This document shows positions 1 through 7,863 of a stretch of DNA of 8,001 bases, in pieces. The first letter of the stretch is position 1, and each line of letters starts with the position of its first letter. The notes under the pieces are model-generated. The model did no database searches and was not told where the DNA came from. It saw only the letters and a program-made list of their open reading frames with translations. This stretch comes from a virus. Lineage: Duplodnaviria; Heunggongvirae; Uroviricota; Caudoviricetes. The translations under genes were made by a program, and so were the position numbers. Location: the IMG/VR virus record IMGVR_UViG_2698536408_000011, one strand, 5' to 3'.

Positions 1-794
<794 letters not shown>

Positions 795-886: not shown

Positions 887-3067
887 TCATTCTTCCTCTG
901 GATAGCTTGAACTTAAGAGCATATCCTGCGTGAACTGGTCATTAGCTGATTGATTGAAAGTAAAGAAAGATGGTTCATCTGGTCGAACGACAACTTGACC
1001 ACCAAGTGAAACTTTCACTGGCTCCTGAATACGCTTACTCAAAGCACTAATTTCATCCCTCAGACCCTGAATATCTGCACTCGTTAATGCTGAATCTTGC
1101 TTAATGTTGTTTAACTCTGGATGATTGAATCTTGCAATATTCATTGTGGCATTGTTAAACAATTCACCCATTGAACTAAAAATTCTACTCCATCCTTCGT
1201 TAATCATATTCGGTTTATTAGGGTCACCAGAATACACGGGATTAAAGTCACTACCCACACCTACCCCAGACGGATGCATATTAGCGTTTTTGACTACTTC
1301 CTGATTCATAAAATCCAGTGCTTTCTTCAATGCATATAAACCAAGAGTGACGCCTCTGATTTGTGGAATCATTGAAGCTAATGCTAACGCTGTTTCATAA
1401 CCGTCATCAGCATAACCAATTGCAAGAGCACTACCTACACCACCAGCTACACCTTTCAGTTTTCCACCACCTTTACCAGTAGCTACCTGACCAGCCACCT
1501 GATTAGCTCTTGTACCTAACGTTGTGATTGCTCTTGTCAGGTTCATAACCCCTGTAGTAGCACTGAATAGCGTCTTTGCAGATAACGCTATAGCAAGACC
1601 TTTGACGAAGTTGATAAAACCATCACCGACTTCATCAAGTAGTTTTCGTTTAGTGTCATCAAGGCTGTAATAGAACTTCTTAGTCTGTAAAATCCAGCCT
1701 TCAATGGTGTTATTGAATACGCGAATATCATCTACACCAGCTTTAAGCATGTCGATAAGTCCACCGATAGCATCACCAGCGATAGAAGAACTCATCCCCA
1801 TTTCACTAAGCAGGTTACTCAGGCTGGATAAGAAGCCGTTTAGCTCATCCTGTGAACCTGAGAAGATTTTCACCATCGTATCATCCCAATTGTTTGCTAA
1901 CTTACCTAAAGCTGTCTGAGTGCTCTTAGTGACTTCAGCCCAGCCACCCGCTTTATCAATCATCAAGCCCATCTGTTTAGCGACTTTAGGGAGAGTATCA
2001 GCGGAAAGTACCTTCCCGTTTTTCATGGCTGCATCAAGCTCTGTAGCAGTCATACCCAATGCTTCAGCGAATAGCTTAAATGCACCAGCCATACGGTCAC
2101 CTAACTGCCCACGTAATTCCTCAGCCTGAATCTTGCCCTTGCTCGCCATCTGCTCAAATGCTCTCAAAATGCCGTTTAGCTCATCGTTAGAAAGCCCCAT
2201 TAAGCGACTCATAGCCGTTGCATTACCAAATAGCTCCTGTGTCTGTTCCTGTGACATAGAACCCTGAGCACCTGCTGCAAACTTAGCGTAGCTTGATAGC
2301 CCTTCAGAGATATTAAGACCTGTCTTGTCTGCTAAATTTCGAATAAATACCTCAGCTTCAGATGCTTTATCACCAAGTACAAACTTAGCGGCTCTCTGTG
2401 CGGAATCTCGTTTAAGACCTGCATTCATAATGGCCTTGTAAGCGTTAAGAGCACCCATCACAGAGTAAAATGCACCAGATAATTTAATCGCATTGCTTGC
2501 AAGATTATTAAATGCGTCGCTTGTATTGTTAATGCTGGCGGTCTTTGTCTGTGACCTGAGTTTATTCAACGTTTCACGAAGAGATTGATTTAATTTTGCA
2601 AGTTCAGCGTTAAACTTTTCACTTCCAATATTACCAGCCTTACCGCTTAAGCTGTAATACTGTGCTTTAAACATTTTAGCCATCAGCGGATTAATATCAC
2701 CAAGCTTAGACATATTCACGCTATGCGCTGCTGTGATTGCTCTGTTTCCGCTAATTCGTGGTTGCCTTGATTGTTTTGGAGGATTAACAGTGTCATTAAA
2801 TCTGGTGGCAAACTGAAATGCTTTTGTGCTTCTTGCTCTCTGCTCAATCTTGTCAAAGGTCTTATTAAACTTCCTTTCAAGCTGCCCTAAAGAACTTGTC
2901 AGATTGCTGTCAAGTTGCTTGGTATCGACCTTAAACGCTCTATTCAAATTGCGTTCAATTCTTTGTGCTGACTGCAAAGCTGCCTTTTCAACTCTTTGCA
3001 AGCCCTTAATAACGTTTTCACTGAAACTAAGTTCAACGATAAAACTATCAACTGTGAATTTGCTCAT
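887..3067 (-). CDS. Phage tail tape measure protein (726 aa)
   Basis: ATG at 3067..3065 follows AAGAGGTGA with 7-nt spacing. The N-terminal third is alpha-helical and coiled-coil-like. The central region (SRLMGLSNDELNGILRAFEQMASKGKIQAEELRGQLGDRMAGAFKLFAEALGMTATELDAAMKNGKVLSADTLPKV) matches the conserved tape-measure domain pattern (GK-x-x-x-EELR-x-QLG-x-R-x-x-GA). A Gly-rich hydrophobic stretch (GKGGGKLKGVAGGVGSALAIGYA) follows, as in lambda gpH-type proteins. Stop is TGA at 887-889. Confidence 0.85.
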   Translation of the reverse strand: MSKFTVDSFIVELSFSENVIKGLQRVEKAALQSAQRIERNLNRAFKVDTKQLDSNLTSSLGQLERKFNKTFDKIEQRARSTKAFQFATRFNDTVNPPKQSRQPRISGNRAITAAHSVNMSKLGDINPLMAKMFKAQYYSLSGKAGNIGSEKFNAELAKLNQSLRETLNKLRSQTKTASINNTSDAFNNLASNAIKLSGAFYSVMGALNAYKAIMNAGLKRDSAQRAAKFVLGDKASEAEVFIRNLADKTGLNISEGLSSYAKFAAGAQGSMSQEQTQELFGNATAMSRLMGLSNDELNGILRAFEQMASKGKIQAEELRGQLGDRMAGAFKLFAEALGMTATELDAAMKNGKVLSADTLPKVAKQMGLMIDKAGGWAEVTKSTQTALGKLANNWDDTMVKIFSGSQDELNGFLSSLSNLLSEMGMSSSIAGDAIGGLIDMLKAGVDDIRVFNNTIEGWILQTKKFYYSLDDTKRKLLDEVGDGFINFVKGLAIALSAKTLFSATTGVMNLTRAITTLGTRANQVAGQVATGKGGGKLKGVAGGVGSALAIGYADDGYETALALASMIPQIRGVTLGLYALKKALDFMNQEVVKNANMHPSGVGVGSDFNPVYSGDPNKPNMINEGWSRIFSSMGELFNNATMNIARFNHPELNNIKQDSALTSADIQGLRDEISALSKRIQEPVKVSLGGQVVVRPDEPSFFTFNQSANDQFTQDMLLSSSYPEEE

Positions 3068-3099
3068 TCATGTTTCACCTCTTTAAGTGTTCATATACG

Positions 3100-3140
3100 A
3101 AAAAGGGAAAGACTACCGATATCACTCGATAATCTCTCCC
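3100..3140 (-). terminator. Terminator-like hairpin on the minus-strand transcript between the 68-aa gene and the tape measure start
   Basis: Minus-strand RNA reads GGGAGAGA (rc of 3133-3140), a 20-nt loop, UCUUUCCC (rc of 3105-3112), then UUUUU (rc of 3100-3104). The stem is 8 bp with one G-U pair. The loop is long, so stability is uncertain and no folding energy was computed. Confidence 0.3.
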
Positions 3141-3165: not shown

Positions 3166-3372
3166 TTACCTAACCAGATAATAATTACCATCTTCACCAA
3201 CAATCTGACAATCACTTGGTAATTTATCAAGACACCACTTAGCTATTTTCCTGATTCTATTCTTTTGCTTAGAGGAGGTGAATGATTTGATTCGTTTTGG
3301 TTTGTTGGGTTGTTCTTTCAATCGTTCACTAATTGCTTTAATAAGCTCATAGCGTTCTGTTAAATCAATCAT
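3166..3372 (-). CDS. Hypothetical small basic protein (68 aa)
   Basis: ATG at 3372..3370 follows AAGGTGGTGG. It lies 24 bp downstream of the 236-aa gene. The protein is Lys/Arg-rich (MIDLTERYELIKAISERLKEQPNKPKRIKSF...). I recognise no family. Confidence 0.6.
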   Translation of the reverse strand: MIDLTERYELIKAISERLKEQPNKPKRIKSFTSSKQKNRIRKIAKWCLDKLPSDCQIVGEDGNYYLVR

Positions 3373-3396
3373 TCACCACCACCTTTTAATTATTAA

Positions 3397-4107
3397 TTAA
3401 ATAGCCTTTGCATATTTGCTAGAAATCTTCGTAAGCTGCTCAATATCAGCCTGCATAGCAATCTTCTTAGCATCTTCATATTCTTTCACAAGCTCTTTCA
3501 TAGCCTGAAGCTCTCTTGAGAGATACAACTTAACATTATCAAGTTGCTTGTTACGTGATGCCAAGATGTTCTGTCTAGCAATTTCAGCGAGTTCTTCATC
3601 GCTCTTATTAGTCATGTAAATAAACTGACCAGCACCTCTTGATGCCTTAACCATCTTCACAATTCGATGTCCAGCAGGAAGACTACTAATCACGGCTGCG
3701 ACGTTTTCTTGAAAAGTACCAAAACCATCATTATCTTCGTATTGGTAATAGACAAATGGTTTCTGTGACAATTCATCCTGAATCTCAAATTCTGACGGCT
3801 CAATAGCTGATTGCATCAAGGTAACTTTGCTGTAAGCGTCATCTAATCTAAGGCGCTGTTCTTTCAGCAGTTGGTAATATTTCTTTTCAAGCTCAAGTAA
3901 TGCTTCACTCTTGCAAATATCAGGCATCTCTTGAGGCTCAGGAGACACAAAGATGGTTGTTTTTGGTGACATCTTTAGCGATTGCTCAAGCTCAATACGC
4001 TTGTCATGCTCTTTACGCTGAATAGTGATAGCTGGATGTTCAGTCTGTGGCGACCAGTCACTGAAGCTATCAATCACTTTGCCATTAATGTAAATATCAT
4101 TTGTCAT
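3397..4107 (-). CDS. Hypothetical protein (236 aa from the internal ATG; coiled-coil-rich, acidic)
   Basis: The ORF track starts at a GTG (4155) with no Shine-Dalgarno. The in-frame ATG at 4107..4105 follows GAAGAGGAAAAGCA (GAGG with 6-7 nt spacing) and is preferred. The protein begins MTNDIYINGKVIDSF.... I recognise no catalytic or nucleotide-binding motif. Confidence 0.6.
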   Translation of the reverse strand: MTNDIYINGKVIDSFSDWSPQTEHPAITIQRKEHDKRIELEQSLKMSPKTTIFVSPEPQEMPDICKSEALLELEKKYYQLLKEQRLRLDDAYSKVTLMQSAIEPSEFEIQDELSQKPFVYYQYEDNDGFGTFQENVAAVISSLPAGHRIVKMVKASRGAGQFIYMTNKSDEELAEIARQNILASRNKQLDNVKLYLSRELQAMKELVKEYEDAKKIAMQADIEQLTKISSKYAKAI

Positions 4108-4282
4108 TGCTTTTCCTCTTCTAAGCGGAAGTGTTTCAGTTTTTAAAAAGCACACCTGACAGCCTATCTAAACTTAGAAGAGACTTAAAAGGCGGTTTGC
4201 CAAGTATGCTTTTTAAAAGCTGAATAGCCCTAGATAATTTCTTATAAAGGGCCATTCATAAGGTGAAGAAATTAAAACATCT

Positions 4283-4304
4283 AAAGGATTCAAAAAGGAT
4301 TCAA
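4283..4304. repeat. Tandem direct repeat, 2 x 11 bp (AAAGGATTCAA), in the long intergenic region
   Basis: Read directly at 4283-4293 and 4294-4304. Confidence 0.6.
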
Positions 4305-4330
4305 ACGAATGAACAAGAGTACTTTTCGAG

Positions 4331-4360
4331 ATGACCTCTCAGACTAACCTGAAAGGTCAT
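4331..4360. repeat. Strong inverted repeat / hairpin: 12-bp arms (11/12 match) ATGACCTCTCAG - ACTAAC - CTGAAAGGTCAT
   Basis: Read directly. There is no adjacent U/T tract on either strand, so it is not a canonical intrinsic terminator; an operator or RNA processing/stability element is more likely. Confidence 0.55.
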
Positions 4361-4427
4361 GTAGCGAAAAGCATTGCACCTTTCAGAATAACTATCATTG
4401 ATGTAGAATGATTAATAGTTTAATTCA

Positions 4428-4444
4428 GGAAGAGTTGCTCTTCC
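4428..4444. repeat. Perfect 7-bp inverted repeat with 3-nt loop (GGAAGAG TTG CTCTTCC), ~60 nt downstream of the micro-ORF stop
   Basis: Read directly. No U-tract follows on either strand. Confidence 0.55.
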
Positions 4445-4505
4445 CTATTACCATCATCTCATGCTTAAGGTTATTTGTCAACAGCTTTTTAACAGATTGG
4501 TAACA

Positions 4506-4583
4506 TCAATTCTTATTTACCGTATTACCTACCCAGCAACCAACAAATAACCCTAAAGTCATCCAGAGAATAACGAGTGTCAT
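4506..4583 (-). CDS. Putative 25-aa hydrophobic micro-protein (MTLVILWMTLGLFVGCWVGNTVNKN), translationally coupled to the 101-aa gene
   Basis: Its ATG (4583..4581) overlaps the TAA stop of the upstream gene as TAATG. It has a single membrane-helix-like hydrophobic stretch. It is too short for the ORF track, and a ribosome-binding site would sit inside the upstream coding sequence. Confidence 0.3.
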   Translation of the reverse strand: MTLVILWMTLGLFVGCWVGNTVNKN

Positions 4584-4888
4584 TACATCACCTCGCTGTA
4601 AGGGTTTAATTCATTCTGATAGGTCAAGAATACATTCAGCTTCAATAATTGCTCAGGGCTTAAATCAAGTCGATTGCACTCTTCAATGATAAAGCGCTTA
4701 TTGTATGGGTCTGTTACTTCCAGCTTGTGAACATAGTCACCAAGTTTAATTTCGTTGATTATATGCTTGTCAATATACGTTGACGCTTCAAAACAATGCA
4801 TGAAATAGATATTAAAGCCCGACCTGTTCAGGTCAATCAACCAATTCATGGTTTCTTGGTCAACCATAATTTGCATTGGGTAATTCAT
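4583..4888 (-). CDS. Hypothetical protein (101 aa)
   Basis: ATG at 4888..4886 follows CAGGAAGGA with 8-nt spacing. The protein begins MNYPMQIMVDQETMNWLIDLNRSGF.... I recognise no family. Confidence 0.6.
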   Translation of the reverse strand: MNYPMQIMVDQETMNWLIDLNRSGFNIYFMHCFEASTYIDKHIINEIKLGDYVHKLEVTDPYNKRFIIEECNRLDLSPEQLLKLNVFLTYQNELNPYSEVM

Positions 4889-6084: not shown

Positions 6085-6381
6085 TTACCGGCACTTTCCC
6101 TTGATAATATTGGTGGCCCTCAGATTACCGGGGTCACCGTCTTTTAATCGTAGCTGGTGGACTGAATCCCATAAATCGTAATGATACAGCACCGCAAACT
6201 TCAAAGCGTCAATCTTTAAATCTGTCACATCATCGACGAAATAATAATCCCTCCCTTCTTTCTTCGGTCGAATCCGGTAAACTTCCCCGTGAGTATCTTT
6301 CATCAAGTAACCTTCACGAGAAATGCTGTAACGTCTGAGTAAATAGTCACGGTATTTTCTCTCGCCATTATAAGTTTTCAT
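6085..6381 (-). CDS. Hypothetical protein (98 aa), translationally coupled to the replication initiator gene
   Basis: The ATG at 6381..6379 overlaps the TAA stop of the upstream gene as TAATG and follows GGAGGAATG. The protein begins MKTYNGERKYRDYLLRRYSISREGY.... No family recognised. It sits where a helicase loader would be in lambdoid phages but is far too small. Confidence 0.6.
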   Translation of the reverse strand: MKTYNGERKYRDYLLRRYSISREGYLMKDTHGEVYRIRPKKEGRDYYFVDDVTDLKIDALKFAVLYHYDLWDSVHQLRLKDGDPGNLRATNIIKGKCR

Positions 6382-7334
6382 TAAAACATTCCTCCACCAT
6401 AAACACGTCTGACTTTAACTTTTTCTTTCTTTGGCTCGGTGTGAGTTTTCTTTTTTGGTGTAAAAGTAAAATCATCGTCACTATCATCAAAGTCATCGAG
6501 GTCACTAACCTTGTTCTTTAGCTTCGCATTTCTGAATCTTTCTTTAATTTCTGCTTTACGCTGTTCACGTTTCAATTCCTCTTCAGGGTCTTCTTCATCA
6601 TCAAGGTCAACATCCGGTAATTCATCATCAGTGGCGGGGCACTGTGTGTTTTTATGGTCACTACTAGCAATCACATCAGAGATTTTATCTTCCTTTTTAA
6701 CGACCTCTTTAGCAGCTTCACTATCAAGGTCATCTAAGTCAGATGTTTTAACAGTCTCTTTAATAGCCTCTTCAATACCAAGAGAATCACATTCATGTGA
6801 ATCACAGAGCGAAGCTCCCTTCTTAAAATATTCTTCTTCAAAGTCATCTTCTTTATTGTTATTAATAAGTTCTTTCTTGTTATTACTGTTATTATACGTG
6901 TCAAAGATTTTGACTGACTGAGTAAAAAATTTTGACTCAGTGGGTAAAGAATTTTGACTCAGTGGGTCATCTTTCTTGACTGACTGAGTAACTTTAGACT
7001 CCAGCTTTGCCTTTCTGGCTTCCTTAGCTGTAAGCTCTGTTAAAACCTCCGGTACTTCATCAAGTGAATAAACTTTAATAACACACTGATTGCTTGCAAC
7101 GTTAGTTTTCTTGATTAAACCATGTGCCTCAAGTTGTTTCATACATGCAATCACGGATGTTCTTGTGATTCCAGCATACTGACCAAGATGAGCATATGAA
7201 GGGGTATAATATTGCCCCTTATCGTGATAAAACTTTTGTTCATTCAACATGACAGTGTAAATAATACGGTCGGCAGCTTTAACGCCATTAGTCATCTGAT
7301 AAATACGGTCATCAAACATGTGGAATTTTTCCAT
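6381..7334 (-). CDS. Phage replication initiator / replisome organiser (lambda O-like; 317 aa from the internal ATG) with the origin embedded in its coding sequence
   Basis: The ATG at 7334..7332 follows AAAAAGGAAAATATA; the ORF track start is an upstream TTG at 7391. The N-terminal ~100 aa (MEKFHMFDDRIYQMTNGVKAADRIIYTVMLNEQ...GITRTSVIACMKQLEAHGLIKK) has the winged-helix pattern of phage replication initiator N-domains. Mid-gene iterons and an AT-rich tract follow, then a long acidic low-complexity C-terminal domain (DLDD/DVDLDDEED repeats). Confidence 0.7.
   Translation of the reverse strand: MEKFHMFDDRIYQMTNGVKAADRIIYTVMLNEQKFYHDKGQYYTPSYAHLGQYAGITRTSVIACMKQLEAHGLIKKTNVASNQCVIKVYSLDEVPEVLTELTAKEARKAKLESKVTQSVKKDDPLSQNSLPTESKFFTQSVKIFDTYNNSNNKKELINNNKEDDFEEEYFKKGASLCDSHECDSLGIEEAIKETVKTSDLDDLDSEAAKEVVKKEDKISDVIASSDHKNTQCPATDDELPDVDLDDEEDPEEELKREQRKAEIKERFRNAKLKNKVSDLDDFDDSDDDFTFTPKKKTHTEPKKEKVKVRRVYGGGMF
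6841..6992. other. Putative phage origin of replication (iterons plus adjacent AT-rich unwinding tract) inside the initiator gene
   Basis: The iterons at 6908-6992 are followed, in the direction of gene transcription, by a ~75% AT tract at 6841-6907 (ttctttattgttattaataagttctttcttgttattactgttattatacg). This matches the lambda ori arrangement within gene O. Confidence 0.6.
6908..6992. repeat. Four direct iterons with ~22-bp periodicity, each starting TTGACT
   Basis: TTGACTGACTGAGTAA is identical at 6911-6926 and 6976-6991. ATTTTGACTCAGTGGGT is identical at 6929-6945 and 6951-6967. TTGACT cores sit at 6911, 6933, 6955 and 6976. Confidence 0.75.
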
Positions 7335-7425
7335 TATATTTTCCTTTTTAAAAATAAAACAAAGAAAGGGCTGACCACGTATAGTGACCAACCCCAGAGG
7401 GAGTGAATTAATTAGAAGATGGACT

Positions 7426-7716: not shown

Positions 7717-7863
7717 TTAGCTCAACCTTTGAGCAATCCTGTATGACGTGCTCAGAGGCATTCTGAGAGCATCTGCAATGCACTTAATGGGTTTTCCTTG
7801 CCTGTATAGTTTTATGAAGCTGTCGAGCGTCTCAGGTGGGTAAATGGTGGGTCTTCCTCTCAA
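7717..7863 (-). CDS. Short helix-turn-helix ORF resembling the C-terminal DNA-binding domain of serine recombinases (invertase/resolvase type); possibly a gene fragment
   Basis: The frame is open from 7896 to the TAA stop at 7719..7717. It has no in-frame ATG near its 5' end; the only candidate start is a TTG at 7863..7861, 1 nt after AGAGGAGG. The translation (..NRGGLRGRPTIYPPETLDSFIKLYRQGKPIKCIADALRMPLSTSYRIAQRLS) shows a Gly-Arg-Pro arm followed by three helices ending in STxYR, as in Hin/Gin-type C-terminal domains. Neither upstream frame reaching the window edge looks like a recombinase catalytic domain. Confidence 0.35.
   Translation of the reverse strand: MRGRPTIYPPETLDSFIKLYRQGKPIKCIADALRMPLSTSYRIAQRLS

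What the first reader, a model, noticed from the sequence alone, without database searches (positions are those of the whole stretch)
3166..4107. Unrecognised 236-aa and 68-aa genes occupy the slot immediately upstream of the tape measure gene
In siphovirus- and myovirus-type tail modules the genes immediately upstream of the tape measure gene are the tail assembly chaperones, usually two overlapping frames joined by a -1 slippery site. Here the two upstream genes are separate, non-overlapping and show no slippery heptamer. The 236-aa protein is acidic and coiled-coil-rich, and the 68-aa protein is strongly basic. They are either a highly divergent chaperone pair or unrelated cargo inserted at a module boundary.
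Basis: partly seen in the sequence, partly recalled or inferred. Interest (0 to 1): 0.45.

Follow-up and report, generated by a model that had tools for sequence, protein, structure and literature searches.

The report
Orphan gene pair in phage-satellite tail operon
The two unknown genes are real and conserved, but they sit in a small chromosomal phage-parasite island that has borrowed only the tape-measure and tube-starter genes of Felix O1-like phages, and they are not recognisable tail chaperones.

Summary
The 236-aa gene X (3397-4107) and the 68-aa gene Y (3166-3372) are separate minus-strand genes upstream of a true tape measure gene. X is acidic and helical, Y is basic, and there is no slippery site.

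The context is not a phage tail module. It is an ~11-12 kb island integrated by a serine recombinase in Escherichia/Shigella. The island carries a replication gene plus only two tail genes: a tape measure protein (TMP) and a tube initiator. Both are mosaically related to Felix O1-like phages.

X and Y are core genes. X was upstream of Y in 79/79 loci, and both are under purifying selection. Neither resembles any tail assembly chaperone, transposase or other known family by sequence, profile or fold. X is predicted as a coiled-coil hairpin with a small tip domain.

A conserved intrinsic terminator lies between Y and TMP. X/Y alleles reassort freely against TMP alleles.

Best guess, held at low confidence: X and Y are satellite-specific tail-assembly accessory factors that stand in for the helper's chaperones. 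An anti-helper inhibitor, a capsid-size scaffold or a regulator remain live rivals.

I found no published description of this island family.

The parts
3397..4107 (-). Gene X, 236 aa. Acidic (pI 5.3). Predicted as an antiparallel coiled-coil hairpin (helices 66-100 and 170-218) with a small alpha/beta tip domain (106-166) that carries the conserved motifs NDGFGT, LPxGxR and RGxGQF.
   Evidence: ORF and ribosome-binding site. Family alignment. AlphaFold2 model with pLDDT 78.6, above 86 for residues 65-215. dN/dS 0.33. No family or fold match.
3373..3396 (-). X-Y spacer holding two in-frame stop codons and the Shine-Dalgarno AAGGTGGTG of Y.
   Evidence: The spacer is 8-27 nt in relatives.
3166..3372 (-). 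Gene Y, 68 aa. Basic (pI 9.7). It has an N-terminal helix, a Lys/Arg-rich disordered linker and a conserved C-terminal mini-domain (R-K-I-x-K-W-C-x-D-x-x-P-x-D-x-Q-I-x-G).
   Evidence: An uncalled homologue is present even in the most distant locus, L008. dN/dS 0.29. No PDB fold match.
3095..3140 (-). Intrinsic terminator between Y and TMP: a 15-bp G+C-rich stem with a 6-nt loop (3140..3105), followed by TTTTT.
   Evidence: All 63 distinct Y-TMP spacers from relatives hold a hairpin of -15 to -25 kcal/mol plus a T-run. Five of 12 pairs show compensatory changes. In some relatives only 24 nt separate the T-run from the TMP start, which leaves no room for a promoter.
887..3067 (-). Tape measure protein, 726 aa. 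It is a mosaic. The N-terminal ~45 aa (~80% identical) and the last ~12 aa (LLSSSYPEEE) match Felix O1-like phages, the core is ~55% identical, and the remainder shows little or no detectable similarity.
37..730 (-). Tube-initiator (Dit-like 'phage baseplate protein') gene, here a pseudogene. Codons ~50-74 are deleted with a frameshift, and the last ~6 codons are cut off. Positions 271-706 are ~92% identical in DNA to Felixounavirus.
   Evidence: The role of the homologous Bas63 gp18 as tube initiator comes from PMC12609058.
4453..4481 (-). Sigma-70-type promoter of the X-Y(-TMP) unit: TTGACA, 17 nt, GATGAT with an upstream TG. The -35 hexamer and the sequence upstream of it are at least 90% conserved across 66 loci.
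4108..4447 (-). Leader of about 340 nt, conserved and highly structured. It includes the inverted repeat CTCTTCTAAG/CTTAGAAGAG, which overlaps X's ribosome-binding site.
   Evidence: Nucleotide conservation. Minimum free energy -112.9 kcal/mol, z = -6.9. Repeats. Partial covariation.
4583..4888 (-). Gene U, 101 aa, acidic. It is the conserved upstream neighbour, lying before the promoter, and is not chaperone-like.
1..36 (.). End of an insertion sequence that truncates the island in this genome.
   Evidence: Positions 1-44/50 match many Shigella/E. coli plasmids at 92-95% identity. Homology to intact islands begins at position 37.

Best explanation
X and Y are core, family-specific genes of a small (~11-12 kb) integrative island that resembles a phage satellite. 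The island occurs in Escherichia/Shigella, and related proteins or loci are recorded from Salmonella and Citrobacter. It carries an integrase, a replication initiator and a Dam-type methylase. Its only virion genes are a tape measure protein (TMP) and a tube initiator, both mosaically derived from Felix O1-like virulent myophages. The layout parallels the Vibrio PLE satellites, which build chimeric tails from their own TMP, chaperone and baseplate hub protein.

Shown. X and Y are transcribed in the same direction as TMP. They follow a conserved sigma-70-type promoter and a ~340-nt structured leader. A conserved strong intrinsic terminator sits directly after Y. In some relatives TMP has no room for a promoter of its own, so TMP and the tube initiator can only be expressed by read-through. 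X and Y are not homologues of tail assembly chaperones or of any other known family.

Inferred mechanism (probability about 0.35-0.4). X and Y are the satellite's own tail-assembly accessory pair and functionally replace the helper's acidic chaperones. X would be made in excess over TMP because of the terminator. It is an acidic coiled-coil hairpin that would hold or steer the basic satellite TMP, probably through TMP's conserved ends rather than its variable middle, so that satellite TMP and tube initiator seed tails on the helper's hub. Y would act as X's adaptor or as a modulator of read-through into TMP.
For: Context:
- The island sits between tonB and yciI, or inside yecE, or near mdoH. 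A large serine recombinase lies at one end, with a replication initiator, a Dam methylase and a small recombinase elsewhere.
- TMP and the tube initiator are related to Felixounavirus at 88-93% nucleotide identity in patches. They share the TMP termini that dock in the hub.

Core status of X and Y:
- X was found in 79/79 loci and the tube initiator in 56/56. TMP was found in 77/84; in the other 7 the contig ends within about 2 kb after Y, so an open-ended TMP ORF would not have been listed.
- The cassette is kept in relatives with X at 24-40% identity.
- dN/dS is about 0.3.

Same transcription unit with attenuation:
- Promoter and leader.
- Terminator present in 63/63 distinct spacers, with compensatory changes.
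- Only 24 nt between the terminator and the TMP start in some loci.

Chaperone-like physical properties and need:
- X has pI 5.3, against 4.8 and 4.5 for the helper chaperones. TMP has pI 9.2.
- No recognisable chaperone is encoded among the conserved cassette genes or the other window ORFs that were scanned.
- The satellite TMP middle is only ~33% identical to the helper's, so the helper's chaperone may not serve it.

Precedent: PLEs carry a chaperone-TMP-baseplate hub cluster and incorporate their own TMP by an unknown mechanism (PMC12987554).
Against: - No homology or fold similarity to any chaperone, roughly double the size, and no frameshift.
- X and Y alleles reassort almost freely relative to TMP alleles. 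Distance-matrix correlations are 0.13 for X-TMP and 0.10 for Y-TMP, against 0.62 for TMP-tube initiator. No TMP segment stands out. This is unexpected for a chaperone that coats the variable TMP body.
- The strong terminator means X and Y can be made without TMP.
- In the architecturally parallel sister family, the slot of X holds capsid genes rather than tail genes.
- There is no experimental evidence that the island is induced, packaged or transferred.
Confidence: 0.38

Rival explanations
1. X and/or Y are anti-helper interference proteins, working like PLE11 Rta or the Tai systems. They would be made from the sigma-70 promoter before or early in infection. They would block the helper's own tail assembly (for example its TMP, chaperones or hub) while the satellite's variant TMP and tube initiator escape. 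This would protect the host population, with or without island transfer.
For: - Rta is an 80-aa orphan that blocks ICP1 tail assembly through TMP, and PLE11 carries its own resistant TMP. Y is a 68-aa orphan.
- The terminator allows X-Y expression without TMP.
- X is the most divergent cassette gene (mean amino-acid distance 0.47) and reassorts freely, as expected in an arms race.
- X and Y are intact in islands whose TMP, tube initiator or recombinase are broken by insertion sequences or deletions: the window, L093 and L094.
- Tail-assembly interference is common in mobile elements (PMC11364771).
Against: [quoted passage not shown] X and Y are universal and always adjacent to TMP.
- dN/dS shows purifying, not positive, selection overall.
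- No PADLOC hit.
- The retention of X and Y in decayed islands is anecdotal (seven disruptions in all, not significant).
Confidence: 0.25
2. X is a capsid-size redirecting scaffold, working like P4 Sid or PLE TcaP. It would make the helper's coat protein assemble small capsids that fit the ~11-12 kb island. Y would be an accessory of packaging or regulation.
For: - The island is ~11-12 kb against an 82-88 kb helper. Its size is close to P4's 11.6 kb genome (P4 figure from my own knowledge).
- No other conserved gene of over 200 aa and unknown function is available.
- Sid (about 245 aa) and TcaP (298 aa) are also orphan proteins that escaped homology searches; they assemble into long filaments on the procapsid.
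- In the sister satellite family, which shares a 65%-identical small recombinase and the same gene order, the slot of X holds coat-protein and decoration-like genes.
- X does not covary with TMP.
Against: - Helper structural genes are highly conserved, while X alleles differ by up to 75%. That is odd for a protein that must fit one conserved coat protein.
- The island has no packaging gene and there is no evidence of packaging.
- The adjacency to TMP is invariant.
Confidence: 0.15
3. Y, perhaps with X, is a regulator. Y would be a small basic nucleic-acid-binding protein acting on the conserved leader or on the terminator just downstream of its own gene, as a lambda N-like antiterminator or a transcription factor. 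It would gate TMP and tube-initiator expression or helper late genes.
For: - Y has an N-terminal helix, an Arg/Lys-rich disordered linker and a mini-domain, with pI 9.7.
- Y is more conserved than X or TMP. Its C-terminal motif is kept in the most distant loci.
- It is followed at once by a conserved strong terminator that TMP expression must read through.
- The 340-nt leader is far more conserved than the coding genes and is strongly structured.
Against: - No DNA- or RNA-binding family or fold match.
- The Y model is of modest confidence (pLDDT 74, pTM 0.29).
- The idea does not account for X.
- No binding site was identified.
Confidence: 0.12
4. X and Y are true but extremely diverged homologues of the gpG/gpGT-type tail assembly chaperone pair.
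For: Position upstream of TMP, with the large gene before the small one. X is acidic.
Against: - No profile or fold similarity, including to the helper's Phage_TAC_15 pair.
- No slippery site. Two stops and a separate ribosome-binding site lie between the genes.
- Y is basic, whereas the helper's second chaperone product is acidic.
- An optional third gene is inserted between X and Y in 10 loci.
Confidence: 0.04
5. X is a transposase, as named in NCBI records, or the pair is unrelated cargo.
For: NCBI and nr name most homologues 'transposase'.
Against: - No transposase or any other domain in Pfam or NCBIfam.
- No terminal repeats.
- Fixed position in a conserved cassette in 79/79 loci.
- The predicted fold is a coiled-coil hairpin.
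Confidence: 0.02

Closest known systems
PLE satellites of Vibrio cholerae, tail cluster of chaperone, TMP and baseplate hub protein (Mathur, Boyd et al., Nature 2026, PMC12987554)
   Same: Both are small integrative parasites of a virulent myophage. Both carry their own TMP plus a baseplate or tube-initiation protein related to the helper's, and lack the rest of the tail genes. Both use a large serine recombinase. Genes upstream of TMP are dedicated to the satellite.
   Different: PLE's upstream gene is a recognisable chaperone, structurally like the HK97 chaperone. X and Y are not. There is no sequence relationship to PLE genes. The helper here is Felix O1-like. A conserved terminator sits before TMP. 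No capsid scaffold, nuclease or other PLE effector was recognised. Nothing has been shown experimentally for this island.
Putative E. coli satellites of Inny/Muut/Mt1B1_P17-type phages (Barth et al. 2023, PMC10448857; example L174 in strain FORC_043)
   Same: The architecture matches: integrase, then Dit-like baseplate protein, TMP, a small ~65-aa gene, and a larger gene, followed further along by a replication initiator and a small serine recombinase. The small recombinase is 65% identical. Both families occur in the same E. coli genome.
   Different: The sister family has a tyrosine integrase at a tRNA/lysR site. Its TMP is unrelated (phrog_16051), with nearest phages of ~146-150 kb (Phapecoctavirus, Justusliebigvirus). 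Coat-protein and decoration-like genes sit where X sits. Its 65-aa protein and coat protein are unrelated to Y and X. The one checked genome that carries both families (FORC_043) is listed in their Table S6 only for the sister element. Two other accessions that carry the window's family were absent from the preprint's supplementary files as held, where Table S6 is truncated.
Tail assembly chaperones gpG/gpGT (lambda), gpE/E+E' (P2), and the Felix O1-type Phage_TAC_15 pair
   Same: Gene position just upstream of TMP, with the large gene before the small one. The large product is acidic. It is probably made in excess over TMP.
   Different: No sequence, profile or fold similarity. X is ~236 aa against ~130 aa. 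There is no -1 frameshift. The second product is basic, not acidic. A terminator lies before TMP. There is no allele covariation with TMP.
PLE11 Rta (80-aa inhibitor of ICP1 tail assembly)
   Same: Both are small orphan proteins encoded by a satellite that also carries its own TMP. A possible link to TMP.
   Different: Rta lies outside the tail cluster and is unique to one PLE variant. Y is universal and adjacent to TMP. The sequences could not be compared.
External capsid scaffolds Sid (P4) and TcaP (PLE)
   Same: Both are satellite-specific orphan proteins of about 245-300 aa in a late operon. The island is roughly P4-sized (P4 genome size from my own knowledge).
   Different: No detected structural or sequence similarity. 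There is no evidence of small capsids. X alleles are far more divergent than Sid or TcaP alleles.

Membership tests
Tail assembly chaperone (gpG/gpGT type; Pfam Phage_TAC families; PHROG 'tail assembly chaperone') | Sequence or profile similarity to a known chaperone family | tested here: not met
   No Pfam, PHROG or NCBIfam hit for X or Y, or for any of 10 diverse X members. BLASTP and hhalign against the helper-type chaperones garuso gp116 and gp117 gave probabilities of 0.15% or less. Those chaperones themselves score Phage_TAC_15 at 1e-19 and phrog_1613/4963.
Tail assembly chaperone (gpG/gpGT type; Pfam Phage_TAC families; PHROG 'tail assembly chaperone') | Two overlapping reading frames joined by a -1 programmed frameshift at a slippery heptamer | tested here: not met
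   A 24-nt spacer with two stops and its own Shine-Dalgarno. No XXXYYYZ heptamer in X. The spacer length varies from 8 to 27 nt, and a third gene is inserted in 10 loci.
Tail assembly chaperone (gpG/gpGT type; Pfam Phage_TAC families; PHROG 'tail assembly chaperone') | Chaperone fold | tested here: not met
Tail assembly chaperone (gpG/gpGT type; Pfam Phage_TAC families; PHROG 'tail assembly chaperone') | Encoded directly upstream of TMP and co-expressed with it | tested here: inconclusive
   The position is invariant, and TMP has no room for its own promoter in some loci. However, a conserved strong terminator separates Y from TMP.
Tail assembly chaperone (gpG/gpGT type; Pfam Phage_TAC families; PHROG 'tail assembly chaperone') | Binds TMP and is absent from the mature tail | not testable with these tools
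   Needs pull-down and virion proteomics. Indirect test: X and Y alleles do not covary with TMP alleles.
Phage satellite (PLE-like / phage-inducible island) | Integrative element with its own integrase at a defined chromosomal site | tested here: met
   A large serine recombinase lies at the end of an ~11-12 kb insert between tonB and yciI, inside yecE (DUF72), or near mdoH/lpxL. In the window itself that end is lost to an insertion sequence.
Phage satellite (PLE-like / phage-inducible island) | Own replication initiator | tested here: met
   The 336-aa protein at 6381..7391 hits PHROG replication-initiator families at 2e-10.
Phage satellite (PLE-like / phage-inducible island) | Lacks most virion genes but carries a few genes related to a specific helper phage | tested here: met
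   Only TMP and the tube initiator are present. They show patches of 88-93% nucleotide identity to Felixounavirus and shared TMP termini.
Phage satellite (PLE-like / phage-inducible island) | Induced by, packaged by and interfering with a helper phage | not testable with these tools
   No experimental data. No paper in the searchable library links Felixounavirus with satellites.
Transposase (the name given in NCBI records) | A transposase catalytic or DNA-binding domain | tested here: not met
   No Pfam or NCBIfam domain of any kind. The predicted fold is a coiled-coil hairpin.
Rta-like tail-assembly inhibitor (PLE11) | Sequence homology to Rta | not tested
   The PLE11 record PQ783903 is not in the collections.
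External capsid scaffold (Sid/TcaP) | Structural similarity to Sid (PDB 7JW1) or TcaP, and binding to helper coat hexamers | tested here: inconclusive

The most novel reading that the evidence does not exclude
X and Y together are the missing 'selectivity device' of satellite tail hijacking. They would be a new, non-chaperone protein pair, made ahead of and in excess over the satellite TMP. The pair would both disable the helper's TMP or chaperone pathway and deliver the satellite's TMP and tube initiator to the helper's hub. A structured leader and a read-through-gated terminator would time the switch. This would define a new class of tail-assembly factor. It would also give a tractable E. 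coli / Felix O1 model for the mechanism left open in the PLE work.
Probability: 0.2. Interest if true: 0.8.

Novelty: new variant of a known kind. Interest (0 to 1): 0.6.

Why it matters
Satellites that build chimeric tails with their own tape measure protein were shown only recently, for Vibrio PLEs. How the satellite's TMP is chosen over the phage's is explicitly unknown.

This window belongs to an apparently undescribed sister system, present in about 8% of complete E. coli genomes. It is aimed at Felix O1-like phages, which are widely used for typing, biocontrol and therapy, and for which a full virion structure exists.

The two orphan genes are the only conserved unknowns attached to the borrowed tail genes. 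That makes them the obvious candidates for the hijack or interference step. They can be tested directly in E. coli with BASEL or Felix O1-type phages.

The thousands of database entries that call X a 'transposase' are unsupported.

Tried and rejected
- Family searches. Pfam, PHROGs, NCBIfam and PADLOC scans of X, Y and all neighbours gave nothing for X, Y or U.
- Phage genomes. tblastn of X and Y against 50,697 phage genomes found no match at E<=1.
- Solved structures. Profile searches of the X and Y families against PDB sequences gave only noise.
- Representative library. An exhaustive phmmer search of X against 1.8 billion representatives found only its own narrow family, about six full-length 50% clusters.
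- Helper chaperones. hhalign of the X, Y and U profiles against the helper's chaperones gave no similarity.
- Covariation. The allele covariation test of X or Y against TMP segments gave no signal above background.
- Read-through idea. I considered stop-codon read-through joining X to Y, because they share a frame in the window. I rejected it: there are two stops, Y has its own ribosome-binding site, and the frame relation is not conserved in relatives.
- Anti-satellite nuclease. I looked for a phage-encoded Odn-like nuclease matching this island's replication protein and found no phage match.
- PLE11 Rta. The record needed for comparison is not in the collections.
- Rfam. No credible family in the window.
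- Structure prediction.
- Locus search.
Full report
OBSERVATION. All genes in the window lie on the minus strand. The 236-aa ORF, here called X, runs 3397..4107 from an ATG preceded by GAGGAAAA. The 68-aa ORF, here called Y, runs 3166..3372. A 24-nt spacer separates them and contains two in-frame stops and a strong Shine-Dalgarno. X contains no XXXYYYZ heptamer. X has pI 5.3 and Y has pI 9.7. The downstream 726-aa gene (887..3067) is a true tape measure protein (TMP): Pfam TMP_3 at 2e-21, phrog_4036 at 4e-93, TIGR02675.

CONTEXT. The window is not part of a phage.
- Upstream of X lie small ORFs, a replication-initiator-like helix-turn-helix protein (6381..7391; PHROG replication initiators at 2e-10) and an HTH_7 fragment. 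There are no tube, sheath or head genes.
- The window matches E. coli chromosomes over 63-84% of its length at ~90-92% identity.
- In intact copies the region is an ~11-12 kb insert between tonB and yciI, inside yecE (DUF72), or near mdoH/lpxL.
- The gene order in these copies is: large serine recombinase | 'phage baseplate protein' - TMP - Y - X | ~105-aa gene U - small ORFs (HNH, AP2) - replication protein - Dam methylase - small serine recombinase.
- Only two parts of the window resemble phage DNA. The gene after TMP matches at 271-706, ~92% identical to over 200 Felixounavirus genomes. The 5' end of TMP, with 21 nt upstream of it, matches at 88% to phage garuso.
- At protein level the island TMP is 33% identical to garuso's TMP. 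It shares the first ~45 residues (~80%), a core (~55%) and the last ~12 residues, LLSSSYPEEE.
- In the Felixounavirus Bas63 structure, the gene after TMP is the tube initiator, and the TMP C-terminus docks on the hub and puncture apparatus (PMC12609058).
- So the island carries exactly the two proteins that seed tube growth on the helper's hub, with helper-compatible ends.
- This is the logic recently shown for Vibrio PLE satellites. They encode a chaperone, TMP and baseplate hub protein, and build chimeric tails (PMC12987554).
- The exact X protein is recorded from Shigella sonnei.

THE ISLAND IN THIS WINDOW IS DECAYED. Here the tube-initiator gene has a ~25-codon deletion with a frameshift. 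An insertion-sequence end at 1-36 cuts it off.

RELATION TO DESCRIBED ELEMENTS.
- Barth et al. (PMC10448857) predicted E. coli satellites that carry TMP and a baseplate gene.
- I fetched one of them (L174, strain FORC_043). Its order is: tyrosine integrase | Dit-like protein - TMP (phrog_16051) - 65-aa gene - coat protein - decoration-like gene, then further along a replication protein and a small recombinase.
- Its small recombinase is 65% identical to that of the present island. Its TMP, Dit-like protein, 65-aa protein and coat protein are unrelated to the island's.
- Its TMP's nearest phage relatives are ~146-150 kb phages (Phapecoctavirus, Justusliebigvirus). The window's are 82-88 kb Felixounavirus.
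- The window therefore belongs to a sister family that targets a different myophage group.
- No paper in the searchable library links Felixounavirus with satellites.
- In Table S6, strain FORC_043 is listed only for the sister element. Two other accessions that carry this family were absent from the preprint's supplementary files as held, where Table S6 is truncated.

ARE X AND Y REAL, AND ARE THEY CARGO?
- The pair occurs in 461 of 5426 complete E. coli genomes, with the best match in each at roughly 60-99% nucleotide identity and mostly 60-90%.
- X has over 3000 90%-clusters in the protein collection. An exhaustive search of 1.8 billion representatives found only about six full-length 50% clusters. 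The family is narrow. Proteins or loci are recorded from Escherichia, Shigella, Salmonella and Citrobacter.
- I collected loci from genomes and metagenomes. X was upstream of Y in 79/79 loci with enough flank. The tube initiator followed TMP in 56/56. TMP followed Y in 77/84; in the other 7 the contig ends within about 2 kb after Y, so an open-ended TMP ORF would not have been listed.
- Synteny holds where X is only 24-40% identical. In the most distant locus an uncalled Y homologue is present.
- Ten loci carry an extra acidic gene Z (91-138 aa) between X and Y.
- Pairwise dN/dS is 0.33 for X, 0.29 for Y, 0.33 for TMP and 0.17 for the tube initiator.
- The 'unrelated cargo' reading is therefore refuted. 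X and Y are core genes.

ARE THEY CHAPERONES?
- The helper's genes in this slot are a 132-aa Phage_TAC_15 / phrog_1613 protein and a 79-aa phrog_4963 protein.
- X and Y show no similarity to them by BLASTP or hhalign.
- They show no similarity to any Pfam, PHROG, NCBIfam or PADLOC family, including when ten diverse X members are scanned one by one.
- They have no tblastn match in 50,697 phage genomes and no PDB sequence relative.
- AlphaFold2 predicts X as an antiparallel coiled-coil hairpin (helices 66-100 and 170-218) capped by a small alpha/beta domain (106-166). That domain holds the invariant loops. The N-terminal 60 residues are poorly defined. Overall pLDDT is 78.6, and above 86 for residues 65-215.
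- The upstream gene U is not chaperone-like either.
- The NCBI name 'transposase' for X has no support.

NEW ANATOMY BEARING ON FUNCTION.
- Terminator. The 98-nt Y-TMP spacer holds a 15-bp hairpin plus T-run (3140..3105). Every one of the 63 distinct spacers from relatives has such a hairpin (-15 to -25 kcal/mol) followed by T4-6. Five of 12 pairs show compensatory changes.
- No separate TMP promoter in some loci. In several loci only 24 nt lie between the T-run and the TMP start. That leaves room for a ribosome-binding site but not for a promoter. TMP and the tube initiator must then be expressed by read-through. So X-Y-TMP-tube initiator is one unit with an internal attenuator, or a gated switch.
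- Promoter and leader. The ~470-nt U-X spacer is much better conserved than the flanking genes. It holds a near-consensus -35 promoter (4481..4453) and a ~340-nt leader. The leader folds far better than shuffled controls (-112.9 kcal/mol, z = -6.9). It includes a repeat that can occlude X's ribosome-binding site.
- Allele reassortment. Across 51 distinct full cassettes the mean amino-acid distances are 0.47 for X, 0.36 for Y, 0.41 for TMP and 0.22 for the tube initiator. The distance matrices of TMP and the tube initiator correlate at 0.62. X-TMP correlates at 0.13, Y-TMP at 0.10 and X-Y at 0.25. No TMP segment stands out. So X and Y alleles reassort almost freely against TMP alleles.

INTERPRETATION.
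- What is shown. X and Y are conserved, satellite-specific orphan proteins. They are encoded promoter-proximally in the same unit as the borrowed TMP and tube-initiator genes. They can be made without, or in excess over, TMP.
- Leading inference (about 0.35-0.4). They are tail-assembly accessory factors that stand in for the helper's chaperones. The grounds are these: the position is invariant; no recognisable chaperone was found among the island genes scanned; X is acidic while TMP is basic; the TMP middle is divergent, so the helper's chaperone may not serve it; and PLEs provide a precedent.
- Evidence against that inference. There is no covariation with TMP. The fold is not a chaperone fold. 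The terminator separates Y from TMP. In the sister family capsid genes occupy X's slot.
- Live rivals. These are an Rta/Tai-like inhibitor of helper tail assembly (0.25), a Sid/TcaP-like capsid-size scaffold for an island of roughly P4 size (0.15), and a regulatory role for Y on the leader or terminator (0.12).
- Effectively excluded. A truly homologous chaperone pair, and a transposase or cargo reading.

VERDICT. The pair belongs to a new variant of a known kind of system, satellite tail hijacking, and the family appears undescribed. Interest is moderate to high. X and Y are the prime candidates for the unknown step by which a satellite substitutes its own tape measure protein, and the system can be tested in E. 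coli.

Noticed in passing
window 4108-4481 (minus strand): The ~470-nt spacer upstream of X is far better conserved in DNA than the coding genes around it. It holds a sigma-70-type promoter and a ~340-nt leader. The leader folds at -112.9 kcal/mol (z = -6.9). It has several hairpins that vary by compensatory changes, and a repeat overlapping X's ribosome-binding site. No Rfam family matches. It may be a regulatory RNA element.
   Followed up: partly
window 3095-3140 (minus strand); all related loci: A strong intrinsic terminator lies between Y and the TMP gene. It is present in 63 of 63 distinct spacers and shows stem covariation. In some relatives TMP starts 24 nt after the T-run, so TMP depends on read-through.
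   Followed up: yes
window 1-730: The tube-initiator (Dit-like) gene is a pseudogene here, with a ~25-codon deletion and a frameshift. An insertion-sequence end at 1-36 cuts it off, so the recombinase end of the island is missing. In other genomes insertion sequences sit in TMP, the tube initiator or the recombinase (L093, L094, L002, probably L010), while X and Y stay intact.
   Followed up: partly
window 887-3067 compared with L001 6540-8747: The island's TMP is a mosaic. Its N-terminal ~45 residues and last ~12 residues (LLSSSYPEEE) are nearly identical to Felix O1-type TMPs, while the middle and C-terminal third are strongly diverged. TMP alleles covary with tube-initiator alleles (r = 0.62).
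   Followed up: partly
L004 9296-9604; L008 10697-10972; L009 9561-9977: An optional acidic orphan gene Z (91-138 aa) is inserted between X and Y in 10 of 91 loci. It has no family match.
   Followed up: partly
L174 (NZ_CP016828.1 4121000-4148000): The same E. coli genome that carries this island family (L005) also carries a Barth-type satellite with the same gene order. That satellite has a tyrosine integrase, an unrelated TMP, and coat-protein and decoration-like genes in the slot of X. The small serine recombinases of the two elements are 65% identical.
   Followed up: partly
window 3397-4107 (database names): NCBI and nr name most of the more than 3000 homologue clusters of X 'transposase'. 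No HMM, domain or fold supports this name.
   Followed up: yes
window 7717-7863 and 6085-7391: The 48-aa HTH_7 ORF lies where intact islands have the 3' part of a Dam-type methylase gene. An in-frame stop upstream suggests the gene may be broken here or run differently. The replication protein has a long acidic, lysine-rich low-complexity C-terminal half, and its stop overlaps the start of a 98-aa gene.
   Followed up: no
Y-TMP spacers of L004, L005, L008, L015, L017 and others: Longer versions of the spacer carry extra modules after the terminator. One is the inverted repeat GCTACGTGAAA...TTTACGTAGC, and another is a GATAG(T/C)CTTCTATC hairpin. Their function is unknown.
   Followed up: no
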